This document shows positions 14,305 to 58,314 of a stretch of DNA of 64,000 nucleotides, piece by piece. The DNA is from an uncultured bacterium (GTDB taxonomy: Bacteria > Bacillota_I > Bacilli_A > RF39 > UBA660). The DNA lies in NCBI GenBank assembly GCA_947646655.1, contig CANSHI010000002.1, positions 147,123 to 211,122 on the forward strand. The letters run 5' to 3'. Under the pieces are notes generated by a model. That model did no database searches. It was not told where the DNA came from and saw nothing but the letters and a program-made list of their open reading frames with translations. The translations under genes and the position numbers were made by a program. Position 1 is the first letter of the stretch; every line of letters begins with the position of its first letter.

Positions 14305-14452
14305 ATTGTTTTACTTCCTTTCTTTCACCTGATTTGGTGTTACGTGTTTAAGTATATCATAGTGACATTTATTTTTGAAGAGGCAATTTTTAAGTTCTTA
14401 ATTTTACTTTGCCTTTTCTTATTTTTTTTGTATAATGGAAGTGGTGATAAAT

Positions 14453-15763
14453 ATGTTTGAATACATGGGAGATAGAATTAGTAATGCGATTAAAAATATT
14501 AGAGGGTTAGGTAAGATAACAGAGTCGAATATCGATGATGCTGTTCGTGAAATTCGAATGGCTTTGCTAGAAGCTGATGTCAATTTTTCAGTAGTTAAAG
14601 AATTTGTCGCGAATGTTAAGGAAAAAGCTTTAGGTGAAGAAGTTGGGAAAAGCTTAAAGCCTGATGAAGTTTTTATAAAGATAGTACGAGATGAGTTAGT
14701 TAGTTTACTTGGTGAGAGTGGGGAAGCTCTTAAAACAGATGGAAATCCTACTATAATTATGATGGCTGGATTACAAGGTAGTGGTAAAACAACTCACTCT
14801 GGTAAAATTGCAAACTATGTTCGTAAGAAATGCGGAAAAAAACCTTTGCTCGTTGCGTGTGATGTTTATAGACCCGCGGCAGTTGATCAGTTAAAACAAA
14901 TAGGATCATCGTTAGGCATTCCTGTGTATGATGAGGGGACAGATGTTAAGCCTGTCGAGATTATTAGACATGCTCTAGAATATGCTAAGGAAAATAAAAA
15001 CGACTTCATAATTATAGATACAGCTGGTCGTCTTCAAATAGATGAAGCTTTAATGGATGAATTGGTAGAAATAAGCAATAATTTTAAACTTGATGAAATT
15101 CTTCTCGTTATAGATGCAATGATGGGTCAAGATGCTATAAATGTAATTAATGGATTTAACGATAAATTGAAACTTACTGGTGCAATTTTAACTAAAATGG
15201 ATGGAAATACTAAAGGTGGTGTTGCACTTTCAGTAAGACATCTTACAAATGTTCCAATTAAATTTATTGGAGATTCTGAAAAAATGGATGGTTTGACAGC
15301 ATTTGATCCAAAAAGAATGGCTGATAGAATACTTGATATGGGAGATATTTTGTCAATTGTAGAAAAGGTTGAAGAAAATATCGATATAGATGAAACAACA
15401 AACTTAGCTAAAAAAATGCAAAAAGGTAAATTCGATTTAGATGATTTTTTAAAGACTTTTAAACAAATTAAAAAAATGGGGCCACTTGAGAACTTGTTAA
15501 AGTTAATACCAGGAGCTAGAAACGCTGGGTTAAATAATGTTCAAATAGATCCTAAAGAGATAGCCCATGTAGAAGCAATTATTTTATCGATGACGTCTTA
15601 TGAAAGAAAACACCCTGAAGAAATTAAACATTCGAGAAAACAAAGAATTTCTAAAGGTTCAGGAAGAAGTGTGGAAGAAATTAATAAACTTTTAACACAA
15701 TTCGAGCAGATGAAAAAGATGATGAAGCAACTTACGAGTGGAAATATGAAAATGCCATTTTAA
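14453..15763 (+). CDS. ffh: Signal recognition particle protein Ffh
   Basis: SRP54 N, G and M domains (GLQGSGKTT, DTAGR, Met-rich C-terminus); ATG 14453 follows GGTGA. Confidence 0.9.
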   Translation: MFEYMGDRISNAIKNIRGLGKITESNIDDAVREIRMALLEADVNFSVVKEFVANVKEKALGEEVGKSLKPDEVFIKIVRDELVSLLGESGEALKTDGNPTIIMMAGLQGSGKTTHSGKIANYVRKKCGKKPLLVACDVYRPAAVDQLKQIGSSLGIPVYDEGTDVKPVEIIRHALEYAKENKNDFIIIDTAGRLQIDEALMDELVEISNNFKLDEILLVIDAMMGQDAINVINGFNDKLKLTGAILTKMDGNTKGGVALSVRHLTNVPIKFIGDSEKMDGLTAFDPKRMADRILDMGDILSIVEKVEENIDIDETTNLAKKMQKGKFDLDDFLKTFKQIKKMGPLENLLKLIPGARNAGLNNVQIDPKEIAHVEAIILSMTSYERKHPEEIKHSRKQRISKGSGRSVEEINKLLTQFEQMKKMMKQLTSGNMKMPF

Positions 15764-15863
15764 GTGGGAGCGAAATATGAAAAAATGTATTAATTTAATT
15801 TGTCAAATATGGCTGTATGTATATTTTGTTTTAAAATTATTAATTTAGAAATGAGGAATAAAT

Positions 15864-16445
15864 ATGTTAGAACTAAGTGAAGAAATGAAGGAATATGCTA
15901 GGAAGTCAGCATTGGAATTTCAAAAAAATTTGAATTTTAATCAAACGCTTACGAAGAAATTGCTATCAGACTTCGATTATATTAACTGGTTAGTAAATTT
16001 CTATAGAAGTCATGATTATTTTTATGATGATGATTGGTTGTATACTCCTGAAGCGATAACTGAAGAGGATAGCATGCAATTAAGAAAATTAGATAACTTT
16101 CTTACAGGTATAGTGGAGTATGTCAATAAAATGAATTTGGTATTAGACGAAGATTACTATCTTATTAAGTTTGAGGATGAGATGTTGACATTAAGAGAAT
16201 TTCATGGCCAAGGAGTTCATATTCAGGTTAATAGAGTCGAAGAAAATTTAGAAGGTAAAGTAATCGATATAAAAGATGTGGTAGAATATTATTCTGTGGG
16301 TAATGATTTAAGTCAAATATCTTTTGCAATTAAAAATGCCTTTCGTAATGGTATCTCTGAAGAGGTAATAATCGAGAAAGTTAGTAATACTTTGGAGCAA
16401 TTAAATGTCGAACAACAAAAAAGAATGCTGTTTAATTCAGATTAA
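15864..16445 (+). CDS. Hypothetical cytoplasmic protein, first gene of the kinase cassette
   Basis: 193 aa, no recognisable motif; RBS GAGGAA. Confidence 0.5.
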   Translation: MLELSEEMKEYARKSALEFQKNLNFNQTLTKKLLSDFDYINWLVNFYRSHDYFYDDDWLYTPEAITEEDSMQLRKLDNFLTGIVEYVNKMNLVLDEDYYLIKFEDEMLTLREFHGQGVHIQVNRVEENLEGKVIDIKDVVEYYSVGNDLSQISFAIKNAFRNGISEEVIIEKVSNTLEQLNVEQQKRMLFNSD

Positions 16446-16562
16446 ATTTTTGAGAACATTTAACGATGTTCTTTTTTATACATTGATAATTTTGTCTATA
16501 TGCATTGATTGTAAGTAGATTTCATTTTTGGTATAATGATAATATCAAAGGAGGTCTTTGAA

Positions 16563-17747
16563 ATGAAATGTTTACTTATGAATAAAAATACAGAAGTATT
16601 ATTGGTAGAGTTTAATACGAGTTTTGGAATATTTGATAAAGTGTATGAAATCAGGAATATGGATTATGCACCACTTGTACTAAAAAATTATTATGAAAAA
16701 GAAAAAGATGAAATATTATTACTTAACAGATTAACAGAATGGTTTAAAGGAAGGGGAATACCTAGTTGGAGGGATAAACTCGATATACTTCTGCACCGTC
16801 TTAATGTTGAGACTTCTTGCGAGCTTTTAGATAAATCTTTTGGTTTATCTTTGTCTGACCAATATTGGTTAAAACCTAATGATTTAGATATAAGTTATAA
16901 AGAGATAAACTTTTTTGACAATGACTTCGACTATGCAGAATTTTTAGAAGCCTCCTTGTCTTTAAATGGTGGACCTGTTGAGAGGGAAGAAGCATTAAAA
17001 ACACCTAATAATACTACAGATGGAATGCTAAGAAAAGCTTGGATTATCGAGGGTAAATCAAGGTATTTACTTAAAGGTGGTTATAGGAATGAAATATTGC
17101 AACCATTTAATGAAGTGCTAGCTAGTATGATTTGTGAAAGATTAGGTTTTTATCATGTTGAGTATACTTTGGATACTTATAAAGATTTAGTAGTTTCCAA
17201 ATGTCCGTGTTTTATAACTAAAGATACAGAACTTGTCACTGCATATCAAATAAAAAATGGTATGAAAAAATACGAATCTGAAGATGATTATGAAGATTAT
17301 ATAAAAAAACTTGAAGAAATGGGCATAGAAGATGCTAGAACTCAAATGGAAAATATGTACATTTTAGACTTTCTAATCATGAATGAAGATAGACATTTAA
17401 ATAACTTTGGTATTATAAGAGATGTTAATAATTTAAGATGGATAAGTGTTGCTCCTATATTTGATAATGGAATGGCTTTAAAAGTAGATTATTATAGTGA
17501 AGGAGAGGCTGCTATTTCTGGGTATGGTCGATTATTTTATGAGGTTAAGCCATTTGACGATATCATAAAAGTTGTTAAGAATATTAAAAGAATTGACATA
17601 AGCAAATTAGATGGAATAGTAGAAGAGTTTGAAGCTCTTTTGACTGAATACCAAAGTATTACAAAAATGAGTGATGAAAGAATTCAGTTATTGTGTGTGC
17701 TACTAGATAGGCAAATTAGTAAGCTTAGAGATTTGACAGAAGAATAG
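16563..17747 (+). CDS. HipA-like serine/threonine kinase family protein
   Basis: The C-terminal catalytic motif MNEDRHLNNFG matches HipA D-x-H-x-KN-F-S, and APIFDNG matches HipA aPaYD; a GxxxK P-loop-like motif lies upstream; start after AAAGGAGG. Confidence 0.6.
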   Translation: MKCLLMNKNTEVLLVEFNTSFGIFDKVYEIRNMDYAPLVLKNYYEKEKDEILLLNRLTEWFKGRGIPSWRDKLDILLHRLNVETSCELLDKSFGLSLSDQYWLKPNDLDISYKEINFFDNDFDYAEFLEASLSLNGGPVEREEALKTPNNTTDGMLRKAWIIEGKSRYLLKGGYRNEILQPFNEVLASMICERLGFYHVEYTLDTYKDLVVSKCPCFITKDTELVTAYQIKNGMKKYESEDDYEDYIKKLEEMGIEDARTQMENMYILDFLIMNEDRHLNNFGIIRDVNNLRWISVAPIFDNGMALKVDYYSEGEAAISGYGRLFYEVKPFDDIIKVVKNIKRIDISKLDGIVEEFEALLTEYQSITKMSDERIQLLCVLLDRQISKLRDLTEE

Positions 17748-17835
17748 TTTTCTTCTTTTTATATATGTTTCAAAAAAAATTGATTTTTCTAAAAAATTTG
17801 TTAATATTAAACTTACTGTGAAAAGGGCGGGTTTT

Positions 17836-18627
17836 ATGCAAATAGGTAAGGTTAGTGACAATATTTCATCTATAAAAATAAGTAAAAGAGACTTAGGCAA
17901 TAAATATCATTTAATAGATTATGGCCAAGAAGGAGAAGTTTTTAATTATAATGATATGTATGCTCTAAAGATTTTTAATTTTTGTTCCGACAGCAAGTTT
18001 GAAAAAGTAAAATCATTATTGAGATACTTTGATAAAGATTTTTTGTTTCCCCTTGGTCTAGTTTTCTTCGAGTCAGATTTTTTTGCTGGATATTTTATGA
18101 AGCTTGTTCAGACTAATTATGAAGTTGCCATAGGGAATTTTGAAGATTTAAAGTTAAGTAATATTAAAATGCAGATAGCACTGTTGAGAAAGGCAAGTAT
18201 TGCTTTAAAGAAAGCACACAAAAATGGGATTATCATTGGAGATGTTAAGTCGGATAATATTTTGGTAGACGAGAATTTAAATCCATTGTATGCAGATGTA
18301 GATAATTATAAATATGGTAGAGAGTTTGATTATGATTTGAGACCAGATAGAGCTACGTGGTTAGAGGAATTATATAAAAAAAGTTTTACTGAAGATAATA
18401 ATGATAAATTTCTTTTTGCACTTCTTACACTTGAAGTTATTTTAAATATTTATGAAATAAACTTTTGTAGAGAGTCGATAGACGATGCTTTAAATCGAAT
18501 AAAAAATAAATTATTAAGAGAAGGATTAGAACAAATTTTGGCAGATACCCAAGACAAACCTTATGTTCACGAAATTTTGATGGAAGCTTTAAAAGATCAG
18601 GATCTTCAAAAAATAAAAATAATATAG
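17836..18627 (+). CDS. Protein-kinase-like fold protein (ePK/RIO/Kdo-kinase-like)
   Basis: A VAIK-like Lys (YALKIF), catalytic-loop-like IIIGDVKSDNILVD (D-x-K-x-x-N), and DFG-like ADVDNY; the track start is GTG and ATG 17836 follows AGGGCGGG. Confidence 0.5.
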   Translation: MQIGKVSDNISSIKISKRDLGNKYHLIDYGQEGEVFNYNDMYALKIFNFCSDSKFEKVKSLLRYFDKDFLFPLGLVFFESDFFAGYFMKLVQTNYEVAIGNFEDLKLSNIKMQIALLRKASIALKKAHKNGIIIGDVKSDNILVDENLNPLYADVDNYKYGREFDYDLRPDRATWLEELYKKSFTEDNNDKFLFALLTLEVILNIYEINFCRESIDDALNRIKNKLLREGLEQILADTQDKPYVHEILMEALKDQDLQKIKII

Positions 18628-18712
18628 TTGAAGTTTTAAATTATCGTTAGACTTTTACCTAAACAATATTTTTAATGTTTCATAATATATACTAGAAAGG
18701 AAAGTGTATTTT

Positions 18713-19051
18713 ATGTTCAAAAATAGATGTTGTGAAAGACCTATGTCTTTTAGTCAAGAAACACAAATGAACTTTACAAGTGGAGATGTTTATCCAACTG
18801 CAGTTGATGCAGGAATGATGGGAATGGGAATGGGAATGCCTGGATGTGGTTGCACTATGCCACCAGTTCAAGAATGCCCTCAAGAAAGAGTTTGTCATAA
18901 AGAATTCGTTCATGAAGTTCCTCATATCGTACCAATCAATACTAGAGTTATAAATCATCATATTTATAGACATTCTTATACTCCTTGCTATACTTGCTGT
19001 GAGGAAAATGTAGTTAGTAATGTTTACGATGGATGCCCTAATAAATTCTAA
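18713..19051 (+). CDS. CotD-like Cys/His-rich small protein with a (GM)n tract
   Basis: HKEFVHEVPHIVPINTRVINHHIYRHSYTP resembles the CotD inner-spore-coat family pattern (V.H.VPHI.P...VNHH.Y.H); MMGMGMGMPGCGC repeat; the track start is GTG and ATG 18713 follows AGGAAAG. Confidence 0.5.
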   Translation: MFKNRCCERPMSFSQETQMNFTSGDVYPTAVDAGMMGMGMGMPGCGCTMPPVQECPQERVCHKEFVHEVPHIVPINTRVINHHIYRHSYTPCYTCCEENVVSNVYDGCPNKF

Positions 19052-19193
19052 TGATTAAAAAGTTACATTTTCTCGTAACTTTTTTTGTTCGTTCAAATTA
19101 AAATAAATGTCAAGTTTTGAACATTTTTAATGATAAATAACAAATAAAAAAATAATTGTGTTATAATGTTTTAGAGAATAAAGGGTGATGTTG

Positions 19194-20582
19194 ATGCGTA
19201 AAACTATATTATTACTTATAAATGGATTTGGCATTGAAAGAAAGGATTCTACAGAAGTTTATTCTTCTAAATTGATGCCAAATTTTGACGCGATGATGAA
19301 AAACTATCTTTTTACTAATTTAGCTTCGACTGCTGGAGATTATAACAATGCCTACAGAATGTTTAGTATACCTGAGGTTTCAAAGGGTAGTGAGGATGAA
19401 ATCGATAATTTGATCTTTGATAAAAAATTAGGCGAAAACCCAAATCTACAAGCAGTAAGGGATAATATTGGAACAGAAAACAAATTGCACATTTTTTATA
19501 TTATTGAAAATGCTAATAAACTTCATCATTTTAAGGAATTCGTAAGTGTCATTAATCCTAATAAAGATAAAAAAGTTTTTGTTCATTTAATTTTGACAGC
19601 TACTTCGACTGCAAGTTACGATGCGATTATAAAAGTTATAAGTAAAATCTCTTTTGAACTAAGTGATTATTGTAAAATTGGAATGGTTGTTGGACGAAAT
19701 AGAATTAATGACGATGATGTTAGAAGAGCTTTTTATAGAGAACAAGGTGAGCATTGGAATGAATCTACTAAAAAGTTTGAAATATTAAAAAAAGAAATTG
19801 TTAACCCTGAAGATGCAGGTGTATTTATTATAACAGGGGGATTTGCACTTAAAGAAAATGATTCAGTGCTCTTTATGAATTATGACGAAGTTCAAATGGA
19901 CGTTTTTTATAACGATTTTACTAAAATGCCATTAAAATTATATAGTATCTATCCTTTTAAAGATAATATGCCTTATAGTTTTAAAAAAAATAAAGATGTA
20001 GGCAATTCATTTGCCAGTACAGTGGAAAACTATGGTATTAAAATATTACATATGACAACACCTGAAAGAATAAATGATGTAAACTATTATTTAAATGGAA
20101 TGGAGAAAAAGAAAAGTCCTAATATTACTTTTGCGGTTAATGACAAATCATTATTTTCATCAAAAGAAAGTATAATAAAATTAATAGATGGCAATAATTT
20201 TGATGGATTCATACTCGACTTTTATATCGGTGGCATGAATAGAATGGAAAACATTAAAAAAGAATTGACAGATATAGATAATATAATTAAAAATATAAGT
20301 GAAACAGCAAAAGAAAAAGATTATACTTTTATAGTTAGCAGTTTATATGGAATACATTTGCCTGTAACAGAAGGTGTCATTCAAAAAGTCATAAATTTTT
20401 CAGGAAAGGTGCCTTGCATATTTCAAAGTAATCTCTTTAATAAACAAGAGTATTCATTGAACTCTGCTAATACATATGCTTTAGAACAGACGTTTTTAAC
20501 TAATATTAACGACGAGGTGAAAGCTAATAAGCTTGTACACAAATTGACTTCTTTAGAAAAAATGTTAAATAAAGGAAAATAA
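19194..20582 (+). CDS. Cofactor-independent phosphoglycerate mutase (iPGM)-like protein, probably non-catalytic
   Basis: The N-terminus ILLLINGFGIERKD...KLMPNFDAMMKNY..TNLAS aligns with iPGM ILDGFG...KPNFDRYWNEY..TTLKA, but Asp-to-Asn at the metal site and no GNSEVGH Ser motif; the track start is GTG and ATG 19194 follows AAAGGG. Confidence 0.5.
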   Translation: MRKTILLLINGFGIERKDSTEVYSSKLMPNFDAMMKNYLFTNLASTAGDYNNAYRMFSIPEVSKGSEDEIDNLIFDKKLGENPNLQAVRDNIGTENKLHIFYIIENANKLHHFKEFVSVINPNKDKKVFVHLILTATSTASYDAIIKVISKISFELSDYCKIGMVVGRNRINDDDVRRAFYREQGEHWNESTKKFEILKKEIVNPEDAGVFIITGGFALKENDSVLFMNYDEVQMDVFYNDFTKMPLKLYSIYPFKDNMPYSFKKNKDVGNSFASTVENYGIKILHMTTPERINDVNYYLNGMEKKKSPNITFAVNDKSLFSSKESIIKLIDGNNFDGFILDFYIGGMNRMENIKKELTDIDNIIKNISETAKEKDYTFIVSSLYGIHLPVTEGVIQKVINFSGKVPCIFQSNLFNKQEYSLNSANTYALEQTFLTNINDEVKANKLVHKLTSLEKMLNKGK

Positions 20583-42509: not shown

Positions 42510-42730
42510 TTATTTACGAAGATTATGAATTTTAGTAGTAGTTTATATTTTCTTATAGAGAGAAGTGGATTAGCTGGAAGCACTTTAGAAAATAAACTTA
42601 CGAATTTCAATCATAGGAGTAAAACGTAGTTGGGCGTTAACCAAAAAGAGAGCTAGAGATTCTAGAAATTGGGTGGTACCGCGGTTTTTAAAAATCGTCC
42701 CATGATCTGGATTTTTTTTAATGGAAAGGA
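42510..42730 (+). ncRNA. T-box riboswitch leader (Phe specifier) controlling pheS-pheT
   Basis: The canonical T-box sequence AAATTGGGTGGTACCGCGG lies at 42666-42684; AGAGAG (AG-box-like) and a UUC-containing loop (GAATTTCAAT) lie upstream; a T-run follows at 42711-42719. Confidence 0.75.
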
Positions 42731-42737
42731 AAAGTTT

Positions 42738-43775
42738 ATGAAAGAAAAAGTTGAAAAGATAAAAGTAGAATTAAAGGCTTCTTTAGAAGGAAATATTTCT
42801 ATACAAGATCTTGCGAATATTAAAGCAGAATATTTAGGGAAGAAAGGAAAGATTACAGAGTTATCAAATCAGTTAAAAGACTTAAGTAATGAAGAAAAAA
42901 AAGAGTTTGGTAAAAGTTTAAATGAAATTAAAACTTATGCAATTTCTTTGATCGATGAGAAAAGTAAAAGTATAGAAGAAGCGATTTTAAACGAAAAACT
43001 AGAGAAAGAAAAAATAGATATAAGTTTGCCTGGAGTTACTGTAAAAAATGGTGCTCCTAGTATGATCGAAGGGTTAATAGAAAGCTTAGAAGAACTATTT
43101 TTAAGTATGGGTTATGATGTAGTAGAAGGACCTGAAGTTGAAAAGGATTTATATAACTTTGAACTACTTAATTTGCCGAAAGGACATCCAGCAAGAGATG
43201 CACAAGATACATTTTATATTAAAGATGAAGAAATTCTTTTGCGCAGTCAGACTAGTCCAGTTCAAATTAGAACTATGCTTTCAAATGAAGATAAAAGTTC
43301 TATAAGAATTATTTGTCCAGGAAAAACTTATAGACGTGATGATGACGATGCGACTCACACACATCAGTTTACACAAATGGAAGGTTTATTGATCGATAAG
43401 GGAATAAGTCTTGCCGATTTGAAGGGTACATTAGATATCATAGCAAAATATTTGTTTGGAGAGAAAACAGAAACGAGATTTAGAAGTTCATTTTATCCTT
43501 TTACTGAACCAAGTGTTGAGTTCGATGTAAGCTGTCATGCATGTAGTGGAAAGGGTTGTCCTATATGTAAGCATACAGGGTGGATAACTGTTGGAGGTGC
43601 TGGAATGGTACATCCTAAAGTTTTGACTAATTGTGGATATAATCCGGATATAGTTTCAGGATTCGCGTTTGGTTTTGGCATTGAAAGATTAGCAATGTTA
43701 AAGTATGGCGTTACTGATGCGAGAACTTTTTATACAAATGATTTAAGGGTTAATCCCGATAGAAGGGAAGTGTAG
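42738..43775 (+). CDS. pheS: Phenylalanine--tRNA ligase alpha subunit
   Basis: Class II core motifs (FRSSFYPFTEPS, GFAFGFGIERLAML); ATG 42738 follows GGAAAGGAAAAG; the track start at 42669 would run through the T-box. Confidence 0.9.
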   Translation: MKEKVEKIKVELKASLEGNISIQDLANIKAEYLGKKGKITELSNQLKDLSNEEKKEFGKSLNEIKTYAISLIDEKSKSIEEAILNEKLEKEKIDISLPGVTVKNGAPSMIEGLIESLEELFLSMGYDVVEGPEVEKDLYNFELLNLPKGHPARDAQDTFYIKDEEILLRSQTSPVQIRTMLSNEDKSSIRIICPGKTYRRDDDDATHTHQFTQMEGLLIDKGISLADLKGTLDIIAKYLFGEKTETRFRSSFYPFTEPSVEFDVSCHACSGKGCPICKHTGWITVGGAGMVHPKVLTNCGYNPDIVSGFAFGFGIERLAMLKYGVTDARTFYTNDLRVNPDRREV

Positions 43776-47818: not shown

Positions 47819-47836
47819 CTCGTATTTTTTAATGTT

Positions 47837-48265
47837 TTATAATAAAAGTTGTATTTTTATATATAAATTATTTTCTTCATTTTTTAAATTGTTTATATGA
47901 GTTTGGAGTATTTGGTTAATCGATGTATTTTCATATTTCGCTTGTAAATCATTCATATATGTTAGGGCATCCTTTTTAAAGTTAAAAACTTTAATTTCAT
48001 AATAGTCAGATACGACATGGTTTTTTGAGTAAAAGACACCAACTCGATAGTCTAGAAGATTGATTGTTTCTAAACAGATTAAAACTTTTATATTAGAAAA
48101 ATGGTATTCATTGATAATAAGCTTTTTAGCATTTTCAGCGGATATATTTTTAATTTTTGTTTTTGGATCGTAATGTTTTAATAAAGTATAATATTGTTTA
48201 CGAAGGTTTTTAACTGATAATTCTTTTTGTATCAGGTAATCGAATGTGTCATCAATAATATGCAT
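47837..48265 (-). CDS. Hypothetical 142-aa protein (repeat copy A)
   Basis: Identical to 51602..52030 except for the last residue; no recognisable motif. Confidence 0.55.
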   Translation of the reverse strand: MHIIDDTFDYLIQKELSVKNLRKQYYTLLKHYDPKTKIKNISAENAKKLIINEYHFSNIKVLICLETINLLDYRVGVFYSKNHVVSDYYEIKVFNFKKDALTYMNDLQAKYENTSINQILQTHINNLKNEENNLYIKIQLLL

Positions 48266-48368
48266 AGGCTGGCCTTTCTTGACTTTATTATATCACATTC
48301 TGCTCGTATTTAGGTCATTTTATCGAATAAAATAAAATTTTTTGCGAAAATTGTATATAAGGTGGTAT

Positions 48369-48830
48369 ATGATGAATAGCACAAGATTTACTGATTTACG
48401 TGAAGAATTGGAGCTAAGTAGGAAAGAGTTAGCTCAAAAGCTAGATGTTTCACCTTCTGTATATGGAAGATGGGAGAGAGCTAAGGCTACTATTCCAACA
48501 GAAAGAATGTATCAATTATCTAATTTTTATCGTGTTAATTTAGACTATTTACTTTCTTTTATAGATGATAAAGTTGAAATATTAAGTGATGACGAAATCG
48601 ATATGGACTTAGTTTCTAAAAGAATAAAAGAGATTAGAACTGACACAGGTGAAACTTTAAGAGCTTTTGTCAAAAGATTAAATACTACAAATTCTACTTG
48701 GAGTGCATATGAAACAGGTAAAGTTCTAATATTAGCAGACTTTTTGTTGGAGATATGTAAAAAGTATAATTATTCTGCTGATTGGATTTTAGGTAGATCT
48801 GATGTAAAGTTTAGAAATATTGAAGACTAA
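48369..48830 (+). CDS. Tandem-HTH XRE-family transcriptional regulator (repeat copy A)
   Basis: Two consecutive HTH_XRE domains (LSRKELAQKLDVSPSVYGRWER; TGETLRAFVKRLNTTNSTWSAYETG); ATG after AAGGTGG; divergent from the 142-aa gene. Confidence 0.7.
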   Translation: MMNSTRFTDLREELELSRKELAQKLDVSPSVYGRWERAKATIPTERMYQLSNFYRVNLDYLLSFIDDKVEILSDDEIDMDLVSKRIKEIRTDTGETLRAFVKRLNTTNSTWSAYETGKVLILADFLLEICKKYNYSADWILGRSDVKFRNIED

Positions 48831-48980
48831 AAAATCTATTTTTGAAAATTTTGTTACTAATTAAATACTATATTCAGATTAAATATAGTGTTTTTTATTA
48901 TATTAAATAATTATAACTTTTATTTTAAGTTTTCTGTTTTTGTGATAAAATATAACTAGAAGAAAGGAAGAAGACATTTT

Positions 48981-49628
48981 ATGAAAATAACTAAATACCC
49001 TCAATCATGTTTATTGGTTGAAACAAATAACAAAAAAATATTAGTAGATGCAGGAGGATTAAAATACAAAGAAAAATATTTTGATATATGGAAACAAGCT
49101 GATATTATTTTATTAACTCATAAGCATGGCGATCATGTAAATTATGATGTTTTAAAAAATATTGATGTTCCTATTTATTCTACTTTAGAGGTACAAAATA
49201 CTTACCCTGAATTAAAAATTAATATTATTAAAGAAAATGATAATATTCCTTTAGATAATATAAATATTGAAGTTGTTAAAGCCGTTCATGGCTATAATCC
49301 AAATTTAAAAAATGGTGGCGAAGTATTTGAAAATGTAGGTTATATAATTAATGATAATAAAACAAGACTTTATATAACAAGCGATACAATATGTTTTAAC
49401 AATGATTATAAAGCCGATATTGTTGCTTTACCTGTTACAGCCTATGGATTAACAATGTCTAGTTATGAAGCATCTTTATTCGCAAAGGATTTAGGCGCTA
49501 AATTAGTTCTACCTATTCACATGGATAATGAAAAATATCCTACTAATTTAGAATATATGAAAAATAATTTTGAAATATTTGATATAAATTATGAAGTATT
49601 AGAAATTGAAGAAAGTTTGGAGGTTTAG
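48981..49628 (+). CDS. Small MBL-fold metallo-hydrolase
   Basis: HxHxDH motif LTHKHGDHVNYD; 215 aa; RBS GAAAGGAAG. Confidence 0.7.
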   Translation: MKITKYPQSCLLVETNNKKILVDAGGLKYKEKYFDIWKQADIILLTHKHGDHVNYDVLKNIDVPIYSTLEVQNTYPELKINIIKENDNIPLDNINIEVVKAVHGYNPNLKNGGEVFENVGYIINDNKTRLYITSDTICFNNDYKADIVALPVTAYGLTMSSYEASLFAKDLGAKLVLPIHMDNEKYPTNLEYMKNNFEIFDINYEVLEIEESLEV

Positions 49629-50011: not shown

Positions 50012-50941
50012 TTATAAATCTTTTAATTTTTCAAAATTTTCTGGTAAATGTATTATAGATAGTAATTGATTTCTATTAAGTGAACCGATTTCTTCATCAT
50101 ATTTAGTTATTAAATCTGATAAATTATCTATTAATATATTAAACTTATTTTTACTTGAAAAAATCTTAATAGATATTAAAATCGCAAACAAATCTTTTTT
50201 ACCTTGTATTATATTATTATTTTTATCTTTCTTTAAATTAAATTCATTATGATATTTAGTTGTTTTAATACCTAATTTATCATCAATAAATGATAAAAGA
50301 ATATCATCGTGGCAGCATATATTCCTTACTCTAACAAGTAATCTTAACATATTGGCAACTTCATTACTATTAATTTTTTCACTAGTTAATTTTTTCTTCA
50401 TATAATCTTTATCATTAGTTTTAGATACATAGAACATATCACGTATCATACCAAATGATAATATTTTCATATATACCCATAATGGAATAAATGAATGATT
50501 ATTCCTATAAAACATTACAGCTTTATTTTTATTACCAAAATCATTTAATTGTTTATCTAAATTAGATAATGTATCACTTAAGTAATTATTTGATAAATTA
50601 TAATTATTGCTATTTAATATATCATTAACTTTAAATCCATATCTATAACAATAATTGTTAATGTAAATTGTTTTTAATTTTTGTTCTATTTCAAGTATAG
50701 AATCTAAAACAATTAACTTTAACATTTTATCAAATATATATAATGAGTATATATCTTCAAAAGAAGTATTATCTTTATAAGTTCCATCAATATTTTTGAA
50801 AGCAAACTTATAACCCATAATAAAATAATAATTATTAGTTTCCAAAATGTTTCTAACATTATTTTCGTTTTTAATATTAATATTTTTAGATTTAATGTTA
50901 TTTATTAATTCATCAATAGTTAAAAAAGTTTTTTCTGACAT
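50012..50941 (-). CDS. Abi_2 (AbiD/AbiF-like) abortive-infection family protein
   Basis: The N-terminus LTIDELINNIKSKNINIKNENNVRNILETNNYYFIMGYKFAF follows the Abi_2 pattern (..eq...L..rGl.i.d...a...L..i.YYrl.gY); about 310 aa; the internal ATG after AGGTGA is preferred over the track start. Confidence 0.6.
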   Translation of the reverse strand: MSEKTFLTIDELINNIKSKNINIKNENNVRNILETNNYYFIMGYKFAFKNIDGTYKDNTSFEDIYSLYIFDKMLKLIVLDSILEIEQKLKTIYINNYCYRYGFKVNDILNSNNYNLSNNYLSDTLSNLDKQLNDFGNKNKAVMFYRNNHSFIPLWVYMKILSFGMIRDMFYVSKTNDKDYMKKKLTSEKINSNEVANMLRLLVRVRNICCHDDILLSFIDDKLGIKTTKYHNEFNLKKDKNNNIIQGKKDLFAILISIKIFSSKNKFNILIDNLSDLITKYDEEIGSLNRNQLLSIIHLPENFEKLKDL

Positions 50942-51062
50942 ATAATCATCACCTGTAATTATTATATCAGAAAAAGACACAAAAGAATAATCCTTTGTGT
51001 GCTCACTTGCAGGAAATTATATTCCTACACTAATAATATATGCAAATATTGAATAAATATAC

Positions 51063-51544: not shown

Positions 51545-51601
51545 GGTATATTCTTTTGCATAAGTCTATAAATAAAGTTTTTAATAATTAAATTACAATT
51601 T

Positions 51602-52030
51602 TTATGATAAAAGTTGTATTTTTATATATAAATTATTTTCTTCATTTTTTAAATTGTTTATATGAGTTTGGAGTATTTGGTTAATCGATGTATTTTCATA
51701 TTTCGCTTGTAAATCATTCATATATGTTAGGGCATCCTTTTTAAAGTTAAAAACTTTAATTTCATAATAGTCAGATACGACATGGTTTTTTGAGTAAAAG
51801 ACACCAACTCGATAGTCTAGAAGATTGATTGTTTCTAAACAGATTAAAACTTTTATATTAGAAAAATGGTATTCATTGATAATAAGCTTTTTAGCATTTT
51901 CAGCGGATATATTTTTAATTTTTGTTTTTGGATCGTAATGTTTTAATAAAGTATAATATTGTTTACGAAGGTTTTTAACTGATAATTCTTTTTGTATCAG
52001 GTAATCGAATGTGTCATCAATAATATGCAT
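51602..52030 (-). CDS. Hypothetical 142-aa protein (repeat copy B)
   Basis: Duplicate of 47837..48265. Confidence 0.55.
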   Translation of the reverse strand: MHIIDDTFDYLIQKELSVKNLRKQYYTLLKHYDPKTKIKNISAENAKKLIINEYHFSNIKVLICLETINLLDYRVGVFYSKNHVVSDYYEIKVFNFKKDALTYMNDLQAKYENTSINQILQTHINNLKNEENNLYIKIQLLS

Positions 52031-52133
52031 AGGCTGGCCTTTCTTGACTTTATTATATCACATTCTGCTCGTATTTAGGTCATTTTATCGAATAAAATAA
52101 AATTTTTTGCGAAAATTGTATATAAGGTGGTAT

Positions 52134-52595
52134 ATGATGAATAGCACAAGATTTACTGATTTACGTGAAGAATTGGAGCTAAGTAGGAAAGAGTTAGCTC
52201 AAAAGCTAGATGTTTCACCTTCTGTATATGGAAGATGGGAGAGAGCTAAGGCTACTATTCCAACAGAAAGAATGTATCAATTATCTAATTTTTATCGTGT
52301 TAATTTAGACTATTTACTTTCTTTTATAGATGATAAAGTTGAAATATTAAGTGATGACGAAATCGATATGGACTTAGTTTCTAAAAGAATAAAAGAGATT
52401 AGAACTGACACAGGTGAAACTTTAAGAGCTTTTGTCAAAAGATTAAATACTACGAATTCTACTTGGAGTGCATATGAAACTGGTAAAGTATTAATATTAG
52501 CAGACTTTTTGTTGGAAATATGTAAAAAGTATAATTATTCTGCTGATTGGATTTTAGGAAGATCTGATGTAAAGTTTAGAAATAATGAAGACTAA
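52134..52595 (+). CDS. Tandem-HTH XRE-family transcriptional regulator (repeat copy B)
   Basis: Duplicate of 48369..48830 with 2 aa substitutions. Confidence 0.7.
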   Translation: MMNSTRFTDLREELELSRKELAQKLDVSPSVYGRWERAKATIPTERMYQLSNFYRVNLDYLLSFIDDKVEILSDDEIDMDLVSKRIKEIRTDTGETLRAFVKRLNTTNSTWSAYETGKVLILADFLLEICKKYNYSADWILGRSDVKFRNNED

Positions 52596-52757
52596 AAATT
52601 CTTTTTAAAGTAAAGAAGAAAAATACGTGAAATAAATGAGATATTTAATCTTTAGATTAGTTATAAGAAAATATTTAAATAGTATTTTTTTTTTAAATTA
52701 TTTATTGTATAATATCCATAATGCATAGGTATTTTAGATTTTATACGGGAGGAACGC

Positions 52758-58239: not shown

Positions 58240-58314
58240 TGGAGGAACCGACCAGATTTGAACTGGTGATCAGGGTGTTGCAGACCCACGCCTTACCACT
58301 TGGCTACGGTTCCA
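58240..58314 (-). tRNA. tRNA-Cys (anticodon GCA)
   Basis: The minus strand reads GGAACCG-TA-GCCAAGTGGTAAGGC-G-TGGGT-CTGCAAC-ACCCT-GATC-ACCAGTTCAAATCTGGT-CGGTTCC-T-CCA, a cloverleaf with a TTCAAAT T-loop, anticodon loop CU-GCA-AC, and encoded CCA. Confidence 0.85.

What the first reader, a model, noticed from the sequence alone, without database searches (positions are those of the whole stretch)
15864..18627. Three-gene cassette with two different kinase-fold proteins (HipA-like plus ePK/RIO-like) and an unknown partner
Between ffh and the CotD-like gene lies a same-strand trio: an unknown 193-aa protein, a 394-aa protein with the HipA catalytic signature (D-R-H-L-N-N-F plus a downstream aP-x-x-D) and a P-loop-like GxxxK, and a 263-aa protein with ePK-like VAIK-Lys, D-x-K-x-x-N catalytic loop and DVD (DFG-like) motifs. 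HipA kinases are toxins that are normally paired with a HipB HTH antitoxin. Here no HTH gene is present. Instead there is a second, unrelated kinase-fold gene. This arrangement resembles neither hipBA nor hipBST, so it may be an undescribed toxin/antitoxin or phospho-signalling module. Alternatively, given the adjacent CotD-like gene, it could be a set of spore-coat (CotS/BSK-like) kinases.
Basis: partly seen in the sequence, partly recalled or inferred. Interest (0 to 1): 0.6.

Follow-up and report, generated by a model that had tools for sequence, protein, structure and literature searches.

The report
Solitary HipA-like kinase, not a trio
The three genes are real and two do encode kinase folds, but they are separate transcription units with separate histories: a self-contained accessory HipA-family kinase gene beside a species-specific orphan gene and an unrelated resident small protein kinase.

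Summary
Three same-strand ORFs lie at the stated coordinates. The 394-aa protein is a HipA_C-superfamily kinase with every catalytic motif intact, and CtkA is its closest solved relative. The 263-aa protein belongs to a divergent family of small Hanks-type (ePK) kinases.

The interpretation as one cassette does not hold. A 94%-identical strain has ffh followed directly by the ePK-like gene. It lacks the 193-aa gene and nearly all of the HipA-like gene, of which only a ~55-bp 3' relic remains. None of 80 other species-level loci carrying a 67-78% identical HipA-like gene has the 193-aa gene or an ePK-family gene within 6 kb.

The HipA-like gene nearly always carries its own TGnTATAAT promoter and RBS, and commonly a hairpin with a T-run at the stop codon. 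It has no conserved partner. In about a quarter of loci it is the only cargo of a ~3-kb large-serine-recombinase element that splits a host gene.

The 193-aa protein is an orphan with its own terminator (two clusters in 5.8 billion proteins, both from this species).

Best reading: a monocistronic, antitoxin-less Hip-family kinase carried as an accessory gene. The spore-coat kinase idea is not supported. This is a new variant of a known kind, of moderate interest.

The parts
15792..17707 (.). Segment present in the window strain and absent from a 94%-identical strain of the same species (L010-L013). It holds the 193-aa gene and nearly all of the HipA-like gene.
   Evidence: blastn of L011 and L010 against the window leaves this gap. 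Junction alignments show that L011 keeps a relic of about 55 bp of the HipA-like 3' end plus hairpin.
15864..16445 (+). 193-aa orphan protein gene. It is acidic and has no recognisable domain.
   Evidence: ORF. No hit in Pfam, NCBIfam, PADLOC, PHROGs or PDB. Only two clusters in 5.8 billion proteins, both at this locus of this species. dN/dS 0.33 against L015. The AF2 model is unusable, pLDDT 40.5.
16452..16479 (+). Terminator-like hairpin (9-bp stem) plus T-run, directly after the 193-aa gene.
   Evidence: strand folding gives -7.9 kcal/mol, z -3.5, and 0 of 200 shuffles fold as well. Sequence.
16509..16554 (+). Own promoter and RBS of the HipA-like gene: TTGTAA, 17 nt, then the extended -10 TGGTATAAT (16529-16537), and GGAGG at 16550-16554.
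   Evidence: Promoter scan, 10 of 12 matches with the TG extension. A TGnTATAAT-like box plus RBS sits at the same distance upstream in nearly all of about 85 loci from other genomes.
16563..17747 (+). 394-aa HipA_C-superfamily Ser/Thr kinase gene, CtkA-like, with a HipA-length N-terminal region.
   Evidence: Pfam HipA_C 35.3 bits, above the gathering score of 30.5. PDB: CtkA at 4e-10 and HipT at 5e-4. AF2 pTM 0.70, and Foldseek finds CtkA, HipT and full-length HipA. Catalytic motifs are invariant. 224 species genomes carry a relative.
17738..17761 (+). Hairpin overlapping the HipA-like stop codon, followed by a T-run (terminator-like).
   Evidence: strand folding gives -6.4 kcal/mol, which is weak on its own (z -1.1). 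Hairpins that overlap or directly follow the stop codon, built from different sequences, recur in many other loci.
17771..17835 (+). Promoter-like region and RBS of the ePK-like gene (TTGATT ... TGTTAATAT). It is conserved in the strain that lacks the upstream pair.
   Evidence: Read from the sequence. The same stretch precedes the gene in L011, directly downstream of ffh. Not verified by a scan or by experiment.
17836..18627 (+). 263-aa divergent Hanks-type (ePK) kinase gene, part of the conserved chromosomal backbone.
   Evidence: 87%-identical orthologue lies next to ffh in L010-L013. 94 representative clusters at E<=1e-10. Catalytic residues conserved. The family profile matches ePK structures, and 43 of 50 members hit Pkinase.

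Best explanation
The interval holds three independent genes, not one module.

(1) HipA-like gene (16563-17747). It is a self-contained promoter-RBS-ORF-terminator cassette encoding a full-length HipA-family Ser/Thr kinase. It belongs to a large, highly conserved family found in reduced-genome gut Bacilli. In that family the gene stands alone, sits in hypervariable accessory neighbourhoods, and is often the sole cargo of a ~3-kb large-serine-recombinase integrative element.

Inferred mechanism: an active kinase that phosphorylates a cellular target, by analogy a component of the translation machinery, to arrest growth or to block phage or competing elements. It would be held in check in cis rather than by a dedicated antitoxin, for example through its N-terminal subdomain or through autophosphorylation at the invariant T151/T152 next to the Gly-rich-loop equivalent.

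(2) 193-aa gene. It is a species-restricted orphan that happens to lie upstream and has its own terminator. It was lost together with the kinase gene in one deletion in a sister strain.

(3) 263-aa gene. It encodes a resident, lineage-specific small Hanks-type kinase that belongs with the downstream backbone genes.

Shown: gene boundaries, family assignments, the intraspecies indel, lack of co-occurrence, and the cassette anatomy. Inferred: kinase activity, toxicity or defence role, the target, and regulation in cis.

The confidence of 0.65 is for the whole statement. The claim that the three genes are not one module stands at about 0.85. The inferred toxin or defence mechanism stands at about 0.4.
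For: Fold and family of the HipA-like protein:
- Pfam HipA_C above the gathering score.
- CtkA and HipT by sequence.
- CtkA, HipT and full-length HipA by Foldseek on a pTM 0.70 model.
- Motifs invariant.

Not a unit:
- Strains L010-L013 have ffh followed directly by the ePK-like gene. The segment 15792-~17707 is missing and a relic of the HipA-like 3' end remains.
- Of 80 other-species loci, none has a 193-aa homologue (tblastn and jackhmmer).
- None has an ePK-family gene (tblastn and a family HMM).

Solitary cassette:
- Neighbour clustering finds no conserved partner.
- A TGnTATAAT-like box plus RBS is present upstream in nearly all loci.
- A hairpin at or just after the stop codon, followed by a T-run, is seen in many loci.
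- The 193-aa gene has its own strong terminator hairpin.

Mobility:
- A large serine recombinase (Resolvase + Recombinase + Zn_ribbon_recom) lies 49-62 bp upstream in about 20 loci. The pair splits an NMT1-type substrate-binding gene or a PBP gene.

Toxin-like character of the wider family:
- A 35%-identical plasmid homologue overlaps a HicB antitoxin gene by 4 bp.
- A 31%-identical homologue carries an N-terminal HTH_17 domain.
- Relatives occur on phage contigs and plasmids.
- PADLOC PDC-M03A matches at 1e-17.

ePK-like gene as a backbone gene.
Against: - No experiment shows kinase activity, toxicity or a defence role.
- The family is 67-78% identical across species whose Ffh is about 68% identical. 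That degree of conservation also fits a non-toxic conserved cellular function.
- The 193-aa gene occupies the classical antitoxin position (upstream, same strand). It is under purifying selection (dN/dS 0.33). It was deleted together with the kinase gene. A strain-specific antitoxin role therefore cannot be excluded.
- The HipA-like terminator hairpin in the window is weak on its own (z -1.1).
- The AF2 model is only moderate (pLDDT 67.8), so the assignment of the N-terminal subdomain is tentative.
- The neighbourhood survey used a simple ORF caller and +/-6 kb flanks.
Confidence: 0.65

Rival explanations
1. The 193-aa gene and the HipA-like gene form a new two-gene toxin-antitoxin pair. The orphan 193-aa protein would be a lineage-specific, non-HTH antitoxin that replaces HipB.
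For: - It has the upstream, same-strand position found in hipBA.
- Both genes are present together in the window, L015 and L017, and absent together in L010-L013.
- dN/dS 0.33 shows a functional but fast-evolving protein, as many antitoxins are.
- Distant relatives of the kinase pair with varied antitoxins, either a HicB gene or a fused HTH.
Against: - A terminator hairpin (z -3.5) follows the 193-aa gene, and a separate extended -10 promoter precedes the kinase gene.
- The same kinase, 67-78% identical, lives without any homologue of the 193-aa protein in 80 other genomes.
- There is no DNA-binding or known antitoxin domain.
- Between the window and L015 the two genes have different divergence (dS 0.23 against 0.013), with a breakpoint near 16550.
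Confidence: 0.12
2. The HipA-like kinase is not a toxin or defence gene. It would be a conserved regulatory or effector kinase of this bacterial lineage, comparable to CtkA, which is a secreted kinase, or to a housekeeping Ser/Thr kinase. Its variable neighbourhood would then only reflect genome shuffling.
For: - CtkA is the closest solved relative.
- Sequence conservation is very high, with mean column identity 82%.
- There appears to be one copy per genome in 224 species.
- There is no antitoxin.
Against: - The gene is dispensable within the species.
- It rides as the cargo of a serine-recombinase element that disrupts host genes.
- Fic and other accessory genes are recurrent neighbours.
- Relatives occur on plasmids and phage contigs, with HicB or HTH partners.
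Confidence: 0.2
3. One reading: the three genes act together as one toxin/antitoxin or phospho-signalling cassette with two kinases.
For: Same strand, short intergenic gaps (91-117 bp and 88 bp), and two kinase folds side by side.
Against: - The ePK-like gene stays next to ffh in strains that lack the other two genes.
- There is no co-occurrence in 80 other genomes.
- Promoter-like and terminator-like elements separate the three genes.
Confidence: 0.03
4. The genes encode spore-coat kinases (CotS/BSK-like) linked to a CotD-like coat protein.
For: A weak Pfam CotD hit on the downstream 115-aa Cys/His-rich protein (E 0.055). 12 of 50 ePK-family members give weak APH hits.
Against: - The CotD hit is below threshold (14.4 bits against 22).
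- No CotS model in NCBIfam matches.
- The catalytic loop is the ePK type D-x-K-x-x-N, and 43 of 50 members match Pkinase.
- Carriers of the HipA-like family include uncultured Bacilli MAGs with 1.2-1.5 Mb chromosomes, a size not expected of sporeformers (my inference).
Confidence: 0.02

Closest known systems
HipA of the hipBA type II toxin-antitoxin system (E. coli K-12, Shewanella)
   Same: Both have the HipA_C kinase core with the Gly-rich-loop equivalent, the lysine, the D-R-H-x-x-N catalytic loop and the Mg-binding Asp. The overall length is similar. The model aligns over 460-500 columns with full-length HipA structures.
   Different: There is no HipB HTH gene next to it, here or in 80 other genomes. 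Sequence identity is only 10-14%. The gene is a monocistronic cassette with its own promoter and terminator.
CtkA (JHP0940), the proinflammatory Ser/Thr kinase of Helicobacter pylori (PDB 3akj, 3akk, 3akl)
   Same: It is the closest solved relative by sequence (4e-10, or 1.5e-11 with the family profile) and by fold (Foldseek 1.6e-6, 21% identity). It is also a stand-alone accessory-genome kinase with no cognate antitoxin (the latter from my own knowledge).
   Different: CtkA is 325 aa, and its match starts only at residue ~180 of the 394-aa protein. The extra N-terminal region here is HipA-like. Nothing here suggests secretion.
Monocistronic Hip kinases HipH (YjjJ) and HipL (Gerdes et al. 2021, PMC8262856)
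   Same: These are Hip-family kinases encoded without a separate antitoxin gene.
   Different: HipH carries an N-terminal HTH. HipL carries HipS-like and HIRAN domains. Either could act in cis. The window protein has neither by Pfam. A 31%-identical Collinsella relative does carry an HTH_17 fusion.
PADLOC candidate defence system PDC-M03 (HipA-like kinase + HIRAN protein; the hipIN type)
   Same: The kinase core matches model PDC-M03A at 1.3e-17.
   Different: The system needs a HIRAN-domain partner. No such gene is adjacent here or in the other loci.
Hanks-type (eukaryotic-like) bacterial Ser/Thr kinases such as PknB/Stk1 (for the 263-aa protein)
   Same: The Gly-rich loop, the VAIK-type Lys, the D-x-K-x-x-N catalytic loop and a DFG-position Asp are conserved. 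The family profile matches ePK structures from the N-lobe to the C-lobe.
   Different: It is only about 260 aa, with no sensor or membrane domains. The catalytic loop is non-RD (I-G-D) and D-x-D-N replaces DFG. It is very divergent: the window protein alone scores 15.6 bits against the 31.7 cut-off.

Membership tests
HipA_C kinase superfamily (Pfam PF07804) | Domain match at or above the curated gathering score | tested here: met
   35.3 bits against a cut-off of 30.5, residues 164-311 of the 403-aa ORF. The precomputed PF07804 assignment is present on all 120 listed homologues.
HipA_C kinase superfamily (Pfam PF07804) | Catalytic motifs: Gly-rich-loop equivalent, ATP lysine, D-x-H-x-x-N catalytic loop, Mg-binding Asp | tested here: met
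   G154, K158, K171, D276-R-H-L-N-N281 and D301 are invariant in 22 homologues. The motifs align with the CtkA motifs.
HipA_C kinase superfamily (Pfam PF07804) | HipA/CtkA/PI3-4K-like fold | tested here: met
   AF2 pTM 0.70. The top 29 Foldseek hits (E<=1e-3) are all CtkA, HipT or HipA, followed by PI4K. TM-scores are moderate (0.35-0.54).
hipBA type II toxin-antitoxin module | Adjacent, co-transcribed HipB HTH antitoxin gene | tested here: not met
   No HTH domain in the 193-aa or 263-aa proteins. No conserved neighbour in about 85 loci. The gene has its own promoter and terminator.
hipBA type II toxin-antitoxin module | Kinase causes growth arrest that the antitoxin neutralises | not testable with these tools
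   This needs expression experiments.
hipBST tripartite module | Short HipT kinase lacking N-subdomain 1, preceded by hipB and hipS genes | tested here: not met
   The protein is 394 aa, with about 150 residues N-terminal to the core, and it aligns with full-length HipA. The upstream gene has no similarity to anything, HipS included.
HipH (YjjJ) monocistronic kinases | N-terminal HTH domain fused to the kinase | tested here: not met
   No HTH hit in the window protein at E<=1. An HTH_17 fusion is found only in a 31%-identical Collinsella relative.
PDC-M03 / hipIN candidate defence system | Kinase plus a HIRAN-domain partner gene | tested here: not met
   The kinase matches PDC-M03A at 1.3e-17. 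No HIRAN gene is adjacent.
Hanks-type (ePK) protein kinases, Pfam PF00069 (263-aa protein) | Pkinase domain match | tested here: inconclusive
   The window protein alone scores 15.6 bits against a cut-off of 31.7. At family level, 43 of 50 members hit Pkinase (best 8e-9), and the family profile hits CDKL3 at 2.6e-10 over positions 21-245.
Hanks-type (ePK) protein kinases, Pfam PF00069 (263-aa protein) | Conserved catalytic residues (Gly-rich loop, VAIK Lys, catalytic Asp and Asn, DFG Asp) | tested here: met
   G30, E32, K45, D136 and D154 are invariant, and N141, D156 and N157 are nearly invariant, in 50 sequences.
CotS/BSK spore-coat kinases | APH/CotS-type domain and a sporulation context | tested here: not met
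   No NCBIfam CotS model matches. The catalytic loop is the ePK type. There are only weak APH hits, in 12 of 50 members.
CotD inner spore coat protein (115-aa neighbour) | Pfam PF11122 match at the gathering score | tested here: not met
   14.4 bits against a cut-off of 22, E 0.055.

The most novel reading that the evidence does not exclude
The conserved solitary HipA-like cassettes would be a new class of Hip-family kinase that works without any dedicated antitoxin. Each is a promoter-ORF-terminator unit. They are found in more than 200 species of reduced-genome gut Bacilli, often as the only cargo of a ~3-kb large-serine-recombinase element. In this reading they serve as a single-gene defence or addiction function that minimal integrative elements carry with them.
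Probability: 0.3. Interest if true: 0.55.

Novelty: new variant of a known kind. Interest (0 to 1): 0.3.

Why it matters
Hip kinases are the textbook persistence toxins, and their known families are defined by their antitoxin partners (Gerdes et al. 2021, PMC8262856).

The family found here is large, tightly conserved and solitary. It has neither an antitoxin gene nor a fused HTH or HIRAN domain. If these kinases are toxic, they must be controlled in cis. If they are not, the usual reading of HipA_C as a toxin does not apply to a whole branch of gut Bacilli.

Their recurrent role as the only passenger of a minimal serine-recombinase element gives a simple system for asking what a single kinase gene does for a mobile element.

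For the finding as written, the value is mainly corrective. Adjacency of two kinase folds here is a by-product of an accessory-gene indel next to a backbone gene.

Tried and rejected
- **AF2 on the 193-aa protein.** With only two sequences the model had pLDDT 40.5. It was unusable, so no fold search was run on it.
- **Homology searches for the 193-aa protein.** phmmer against PDB, plus Pfam, NCBIfam, PADLOC and PHROGs, found nothing. jackhmmer against 963 neighbour ORFs found nothing beyond its own species.
- **Loci for the ePK family from metagenome contigs.** Two attempts failed because no 7-10-column stretch was conserved enough. The context of this family in other species therefore remains unknown.
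- **Consensus terminator scan.** It returned 0 sites, which I attribute to its demand for at least 3 G-C pairs in a 29% GC genome. I replaced it with folding of the individual hairpins and comparison across loci.
- **N-terminal HipA subdomain by sequence.** The HipA-like family profile against PDB added nothing beyond CtkA and HipT. The N-terminal subdomain could not be confirmed by sequence. It rests only on full-length Foldseek alignments and on motif reading.
- **Recombinase as a HipP-like antitoxin.** I considered this by analogy to hipMP. I rejected it as the main reading because the recombinase is a full large serine recombinase and the two-gene unit splits host genes.
- **Independent mobility of the cassette within the species.** I considered this because dS is 0.013 for the kinase gene but 0.23 for its upstream neighbour. 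The low-divergence block runs on into the ePK-like gene, so it may be ordinary recombination mosaicism.
- **Literature.** Searches for orphan or monocistronic HipA and for CtkA found nothing relevant.
Full report
**1. Observation**

The window is AT-rich (about 29% GC). Between ffh (14435-15763) and a small Cys/His-rich ORF (18704-19051) it carries three + strand ORFs: 15864-16445 (193 aa), 16536-17747 and 17818-18627.

Homologue lengths and an RBS place the start of the second gene at 16563, giving 394 aa: GGAGG at 16550-16554, and homologues of 394-399 aa covering 98% of the ORF. The third gene starts at 17836 in the databases, giving 263 aa.

- HipA-like protein: G154-M-L-R-K158, K171, D276-R-H-L-N-N281 and A-P-I-F-D301. 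All of these positions except the variable fourth residue of G-M-L-x-K are invariant among 22 homologues.
- ePK-like protein: G30/E32, the A-L-K45 lysine, G135-D136-x-K-x-x-N141 and D154-x-D156-N157. All are invariant or nearly so among 50 family members.

**2. What the three proteins are**

*The 394-aa protein* passes the Pfam HipA_C gathering score (35.3 against 30.5 bits).

- Its best solved relative by sequence is the Helicobacter pylori kinase CtkA (4e-10). Legionella HipT follows at 5e-4.
- An AF2 model built on 22 homologues (pLDDT 67.8, pTM 0.70) finds CtkA, HipT and full-length HipA structures and nothing else at E<=1e-3. PI4-kinases come after them.
- The alignments to full-length HipA span 460-500 columns. 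The segment W-F-K-G-R-G-I-P-x-x-R...L-L-x-K-x-F-G-L-S-L-S-D-Q-Y-W resembles the HipA N-terminal region. I therefore infer a HipA-like N-terminal subdomain, although no sequence profile confirmed it.

*The 263-aa protein* alone gives only catalytic-loop hits to protein kinases.

- An exhaustive HMMER search found 94 representative clusters at E<=1e-10, mostly 250-290 aa and 30-40% identical.
- Their profile matches eukaryotic-type kinase structures from N-lobe to C-lobe (CDKL3 at 2.6e-10).
- 43 of 50 members hit Pfam Pkinase.
- It is a divergent, minimal Hanks-type kinase: non-RD, with D-x-D-N in place of DFG.

*The 193-aa protein* matches nothing in Pfam, NCBIfam, PADLOC, PHROGs or PDB.

- It has only two clusters among 5.8 billion proteins. 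One is itself, and the other is an 84%-identical copy at the same locus of a sister strain.
- Its AF2 model is unusable.
- dN/dS against the sister copy is 0.33, with dS 0.23. It is therefore a real gene under relaxed constraint.

**3. The trio is not a unit**

*Intraspecies comparison.* The only other cluster of the ePK-like protein (87% identical) lies on contigs that are 94% identical in DNA to the window.

- There ffh is followed directly by the ePK-like gene, then the same 112-aa, 462-aa, 491-aa, 216-aa and tRNA-synthetase genes.
- Window bases 15792 to about 17707 are missing.
- The junction keeps a relic of about 55 bp of the HipA-like 3' end plus its hairpin. The simplest history is therefore a single deletion of the 193-aa gene and most of the kinase gene.
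- The promoter-like region and RBS of the ePK-like gene are retained in those strains.

*Comparison across species.* A scan of one genome per species found relatives of the HipA-like protein in 224 genomes.

- The best 80 are 67-78% identical. Nearly all are uncultured gut Bacilli, 'Tenericutes' or Erysipelotrichaceae MAGs, two of them with 1.2-1.5 Mb chromosomes.
- In none of these loci (+/-6 kb) is there a homologue of the 193-aa protein, by tblastn and jackhmmer.
- None has a member of the ePK family, by tblastn and a family HMM.

*Signals between the genes.*

- A 9-bp hairpin with a T-run follows the 193-aa gene (-7.9 kcal/mol, z -3.5).
- An extended -10 promoter (TTGTAA, 17 nt, TGGTATAAT) and an RBS precede the kinase gene.
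- A hairpin overlapping the kinase stop codon, with a T-run, follows it.

**4. Anatomy and lifestyle of the HipA-like family**

I clustered 963 neighbour ORFs from about 85 loci. There is no conserved partner on either side, and the commonest class of neighbour is 'unique'.

- Nearly every locus has a TGnTATAAT-like box and an RBS about 30 nt upstream of the ATG.
- Many have a hairpin at or just after the stop codon, followed by Ts. These hairpins are built from different sequences in different lineages.
- The unit is therefore a single-gene promoter-ORF-terminator cassette.

The one recurrent neighbour is a large serine recombinase, in about 20 loci. It has Resolvase, Recombinase and Zn_ribbon_recom domains and ends 49-62 bp upstream of the kinase gene.

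- The two genes together, about 3 kb, split an NMT1-type ABC substrate-binding gene. The N-terminal half lies 11-37 bp beyond the kinase stop codon and the C-terminal half lies before the recombinase, in about 14 loci.
- In other loci they split a penicillin-binding-protein gene at its S-T-F-K motif.

Fic-domain genes and other accessory genes recur nearby.

Close relatives are rare on viral contigs. Homologues at 25-37% identity occur on gut phage contigs and on plasmids.

- A Selenomonas plasmid copy overlaps a HicB-family antitoxin gene by 4 bp.
- A Collinsella copy carries an N-terminal HTH_17 domain.

PADLOC's best match is PDC-M03A (1.3e-17). This is the kinase of a two-gene HipA+HIRAN candidate system, but no HIRAN gene is present here.

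**5. How it most likely works**

*Shown.* The kinase gene is an autonomous, dispensable accessory cassette of a conserved family with intact catalytic residues. Its two neighbours have independent histories.

*Inferred.* The protein is an active Ser/Thr kinase. Like other Hip kinases, it probably arrests growth or blocks invading or competing elements by phosphorylating a cellular target. By analogy with HipA (GltX) and HipT (TrpS), listed in PMC8262856, that target may be in the translation machinery.

Because no antitoxin accompanies the kinase, control would be in cis. Candidates are the N-terminal subdomain and autophosphorylation of the invariant T151/T152 beside the Gly-rich-loop equivalent, as with HipA Ser150 (my knowledge).

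Its pairing with a serine recombinase suggests that it benefits a minimal integrative element, through addiction or defence.

*Rivals.*

- The 193-aa protein is a strain-specific antitoxin. Its position, its co-deletion with the kinase gene and its purifying selection favour this. Its own terminator, the kinase's separate promoter and its absence from 80 other genomes argue against.
- The kinase is a non-toxic conserved regulator or effector, like CtkA. Its high conservation favours this. Its dispensability and its association with mobile elements argue against.

**6. Comparison with known systems**

The protein is a member of the HipA_C superfamily: the domain score, the motifs and the fold were all tested and met. 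It does not qualify as any of the following.

- hipBA: no HipB.
- hipBST: not a short kinase, and no HipS or HipB.
- HipH: no fused HTH.
- HipL, or PDC-M03/hipIN: no HIRAN.

These comparisons rest.

It resembles the monocistronic Hip families in organisation and CtkA in sequence.

The 263-aa protein is a divergent Hanks-type kinase. It is not a CotS/APH-type coat kinase. The 'CotD-like' neighbour is a sub-threshold hit.

**7. Verdict**

What remains is a solitary, antitoxin-less Hip-family kinase cassette, widespread in reduced-genome gut Bacilli and often the only cargo of a small serine-recombinase element. This is a new variant of a known kind.

All copies are annotated as hypothetical proteins where they are named at all. 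Interest is moderate to low (0.3) for the finding as posed. The solitary-cassette family itself would deserve more if it were shown to act without an antitoxin.

Noticed in passing
L026 4233-7222 (also L023, L025, L030, L034, L035, L038, L041, L043, L059); L006 4033-7187 (also L003, L004, L007, L008): A ~3-kb two-gene element carries a large serine recombinase plus the HipA-like cassette. It splits an NMT1-type ABC substrate-binding gene into a 155-aa N-terminal ORF and a 180-aa C-terminal ORF. In other genomes it splits a penicillin-binding-protein gene exactly at its S-T-F-K active-site motif. The adjacent ABC ATPase ORF is also truncated in the loci with the split gene (141 aa, against 214-250 aa elsewhere).
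   Followed up: partly
window 47835-48841 and 51600-52606: A 1,007-bp direct repeat at 99% identity. Each copy holds a 142-aa unknown ORF (-) and a 162-aa double XRE-type HTH protein (+). The repeats flank an MBL-fold hydrolase (48981-49628) and an Abi_2 abortive-infection-type protein (50012-50980, - strand). This looks like a small duplicated defence or accessory island.
   Followed up: partly
L011 about 1425-1475, against window 17695-17760: The strain that lacks the 193-aa/HipA-like pair keeps a degenerate relic of the last ~55 bp of the HipA-like gene and its hairpin. It also has an extra ~45 bp that the window lacks. This points to loss by deletion rather than gain by insertion.
   Followed up: yes
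window 14765-18043 against L015: Divergence between two strains that both carry the pair is a mosaic. Differences are dense up to 16549 (dS about 0.23-0.28 in ffh and the 193-aa gene). From about 16550 onward the sequences are almost identical (dS 0.013 in the kinase gene), and this continues into the ePK-like gene. The recombination breakpoint lies at the kinase promoter.
   Followed up: partly
L102 3642-5155 (Selenomonas plasmid NZ_CP017043); L101 3794-5134 (Collinsella NZ_OY725717): Distant homologues (31-35% identical) of the HipA-like kinase have antitoxin-like partners. One has a HicB-family gene overlapping by 4 bp. The other has an N-terminal HTH_17 domain fused to the kinase, and the record annotates it only as 'DNA-binding protein'.
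   Followed up: partly
L001 7250-7774 and 14110-15168; clusters c9 and c23 in L050, L056, L057, L065, L070, L071, L077, L089, L094: Fic/DOC-domain genes are recurrent neighbours of the HipA-like cassette in different species. This suggests shared accessory or defence islands.
   Followed up: no
window 19185-20582 and 18704-19051: The 465-aa protein resembles cofactor-independent phosphoglycerate mutase only weakly (TIGR01307 32.7 bits against a cut-off of 330). It is probably a divergent paralogue. The 115-aa Cys/His-rich protein upstream of it reaches only a sub-threshold CotD score. Both are conserved (96-98%) in the sister strain.
   Followed up: no
window 42510-42705 (+) and 58243-58313 (-): A T-box leader (101 bits) lies upstream of the 368-aa ORF at 42669-43775, and there is one tRNA gene. 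These are the only Rfam matches in the window.
   Followed up: no
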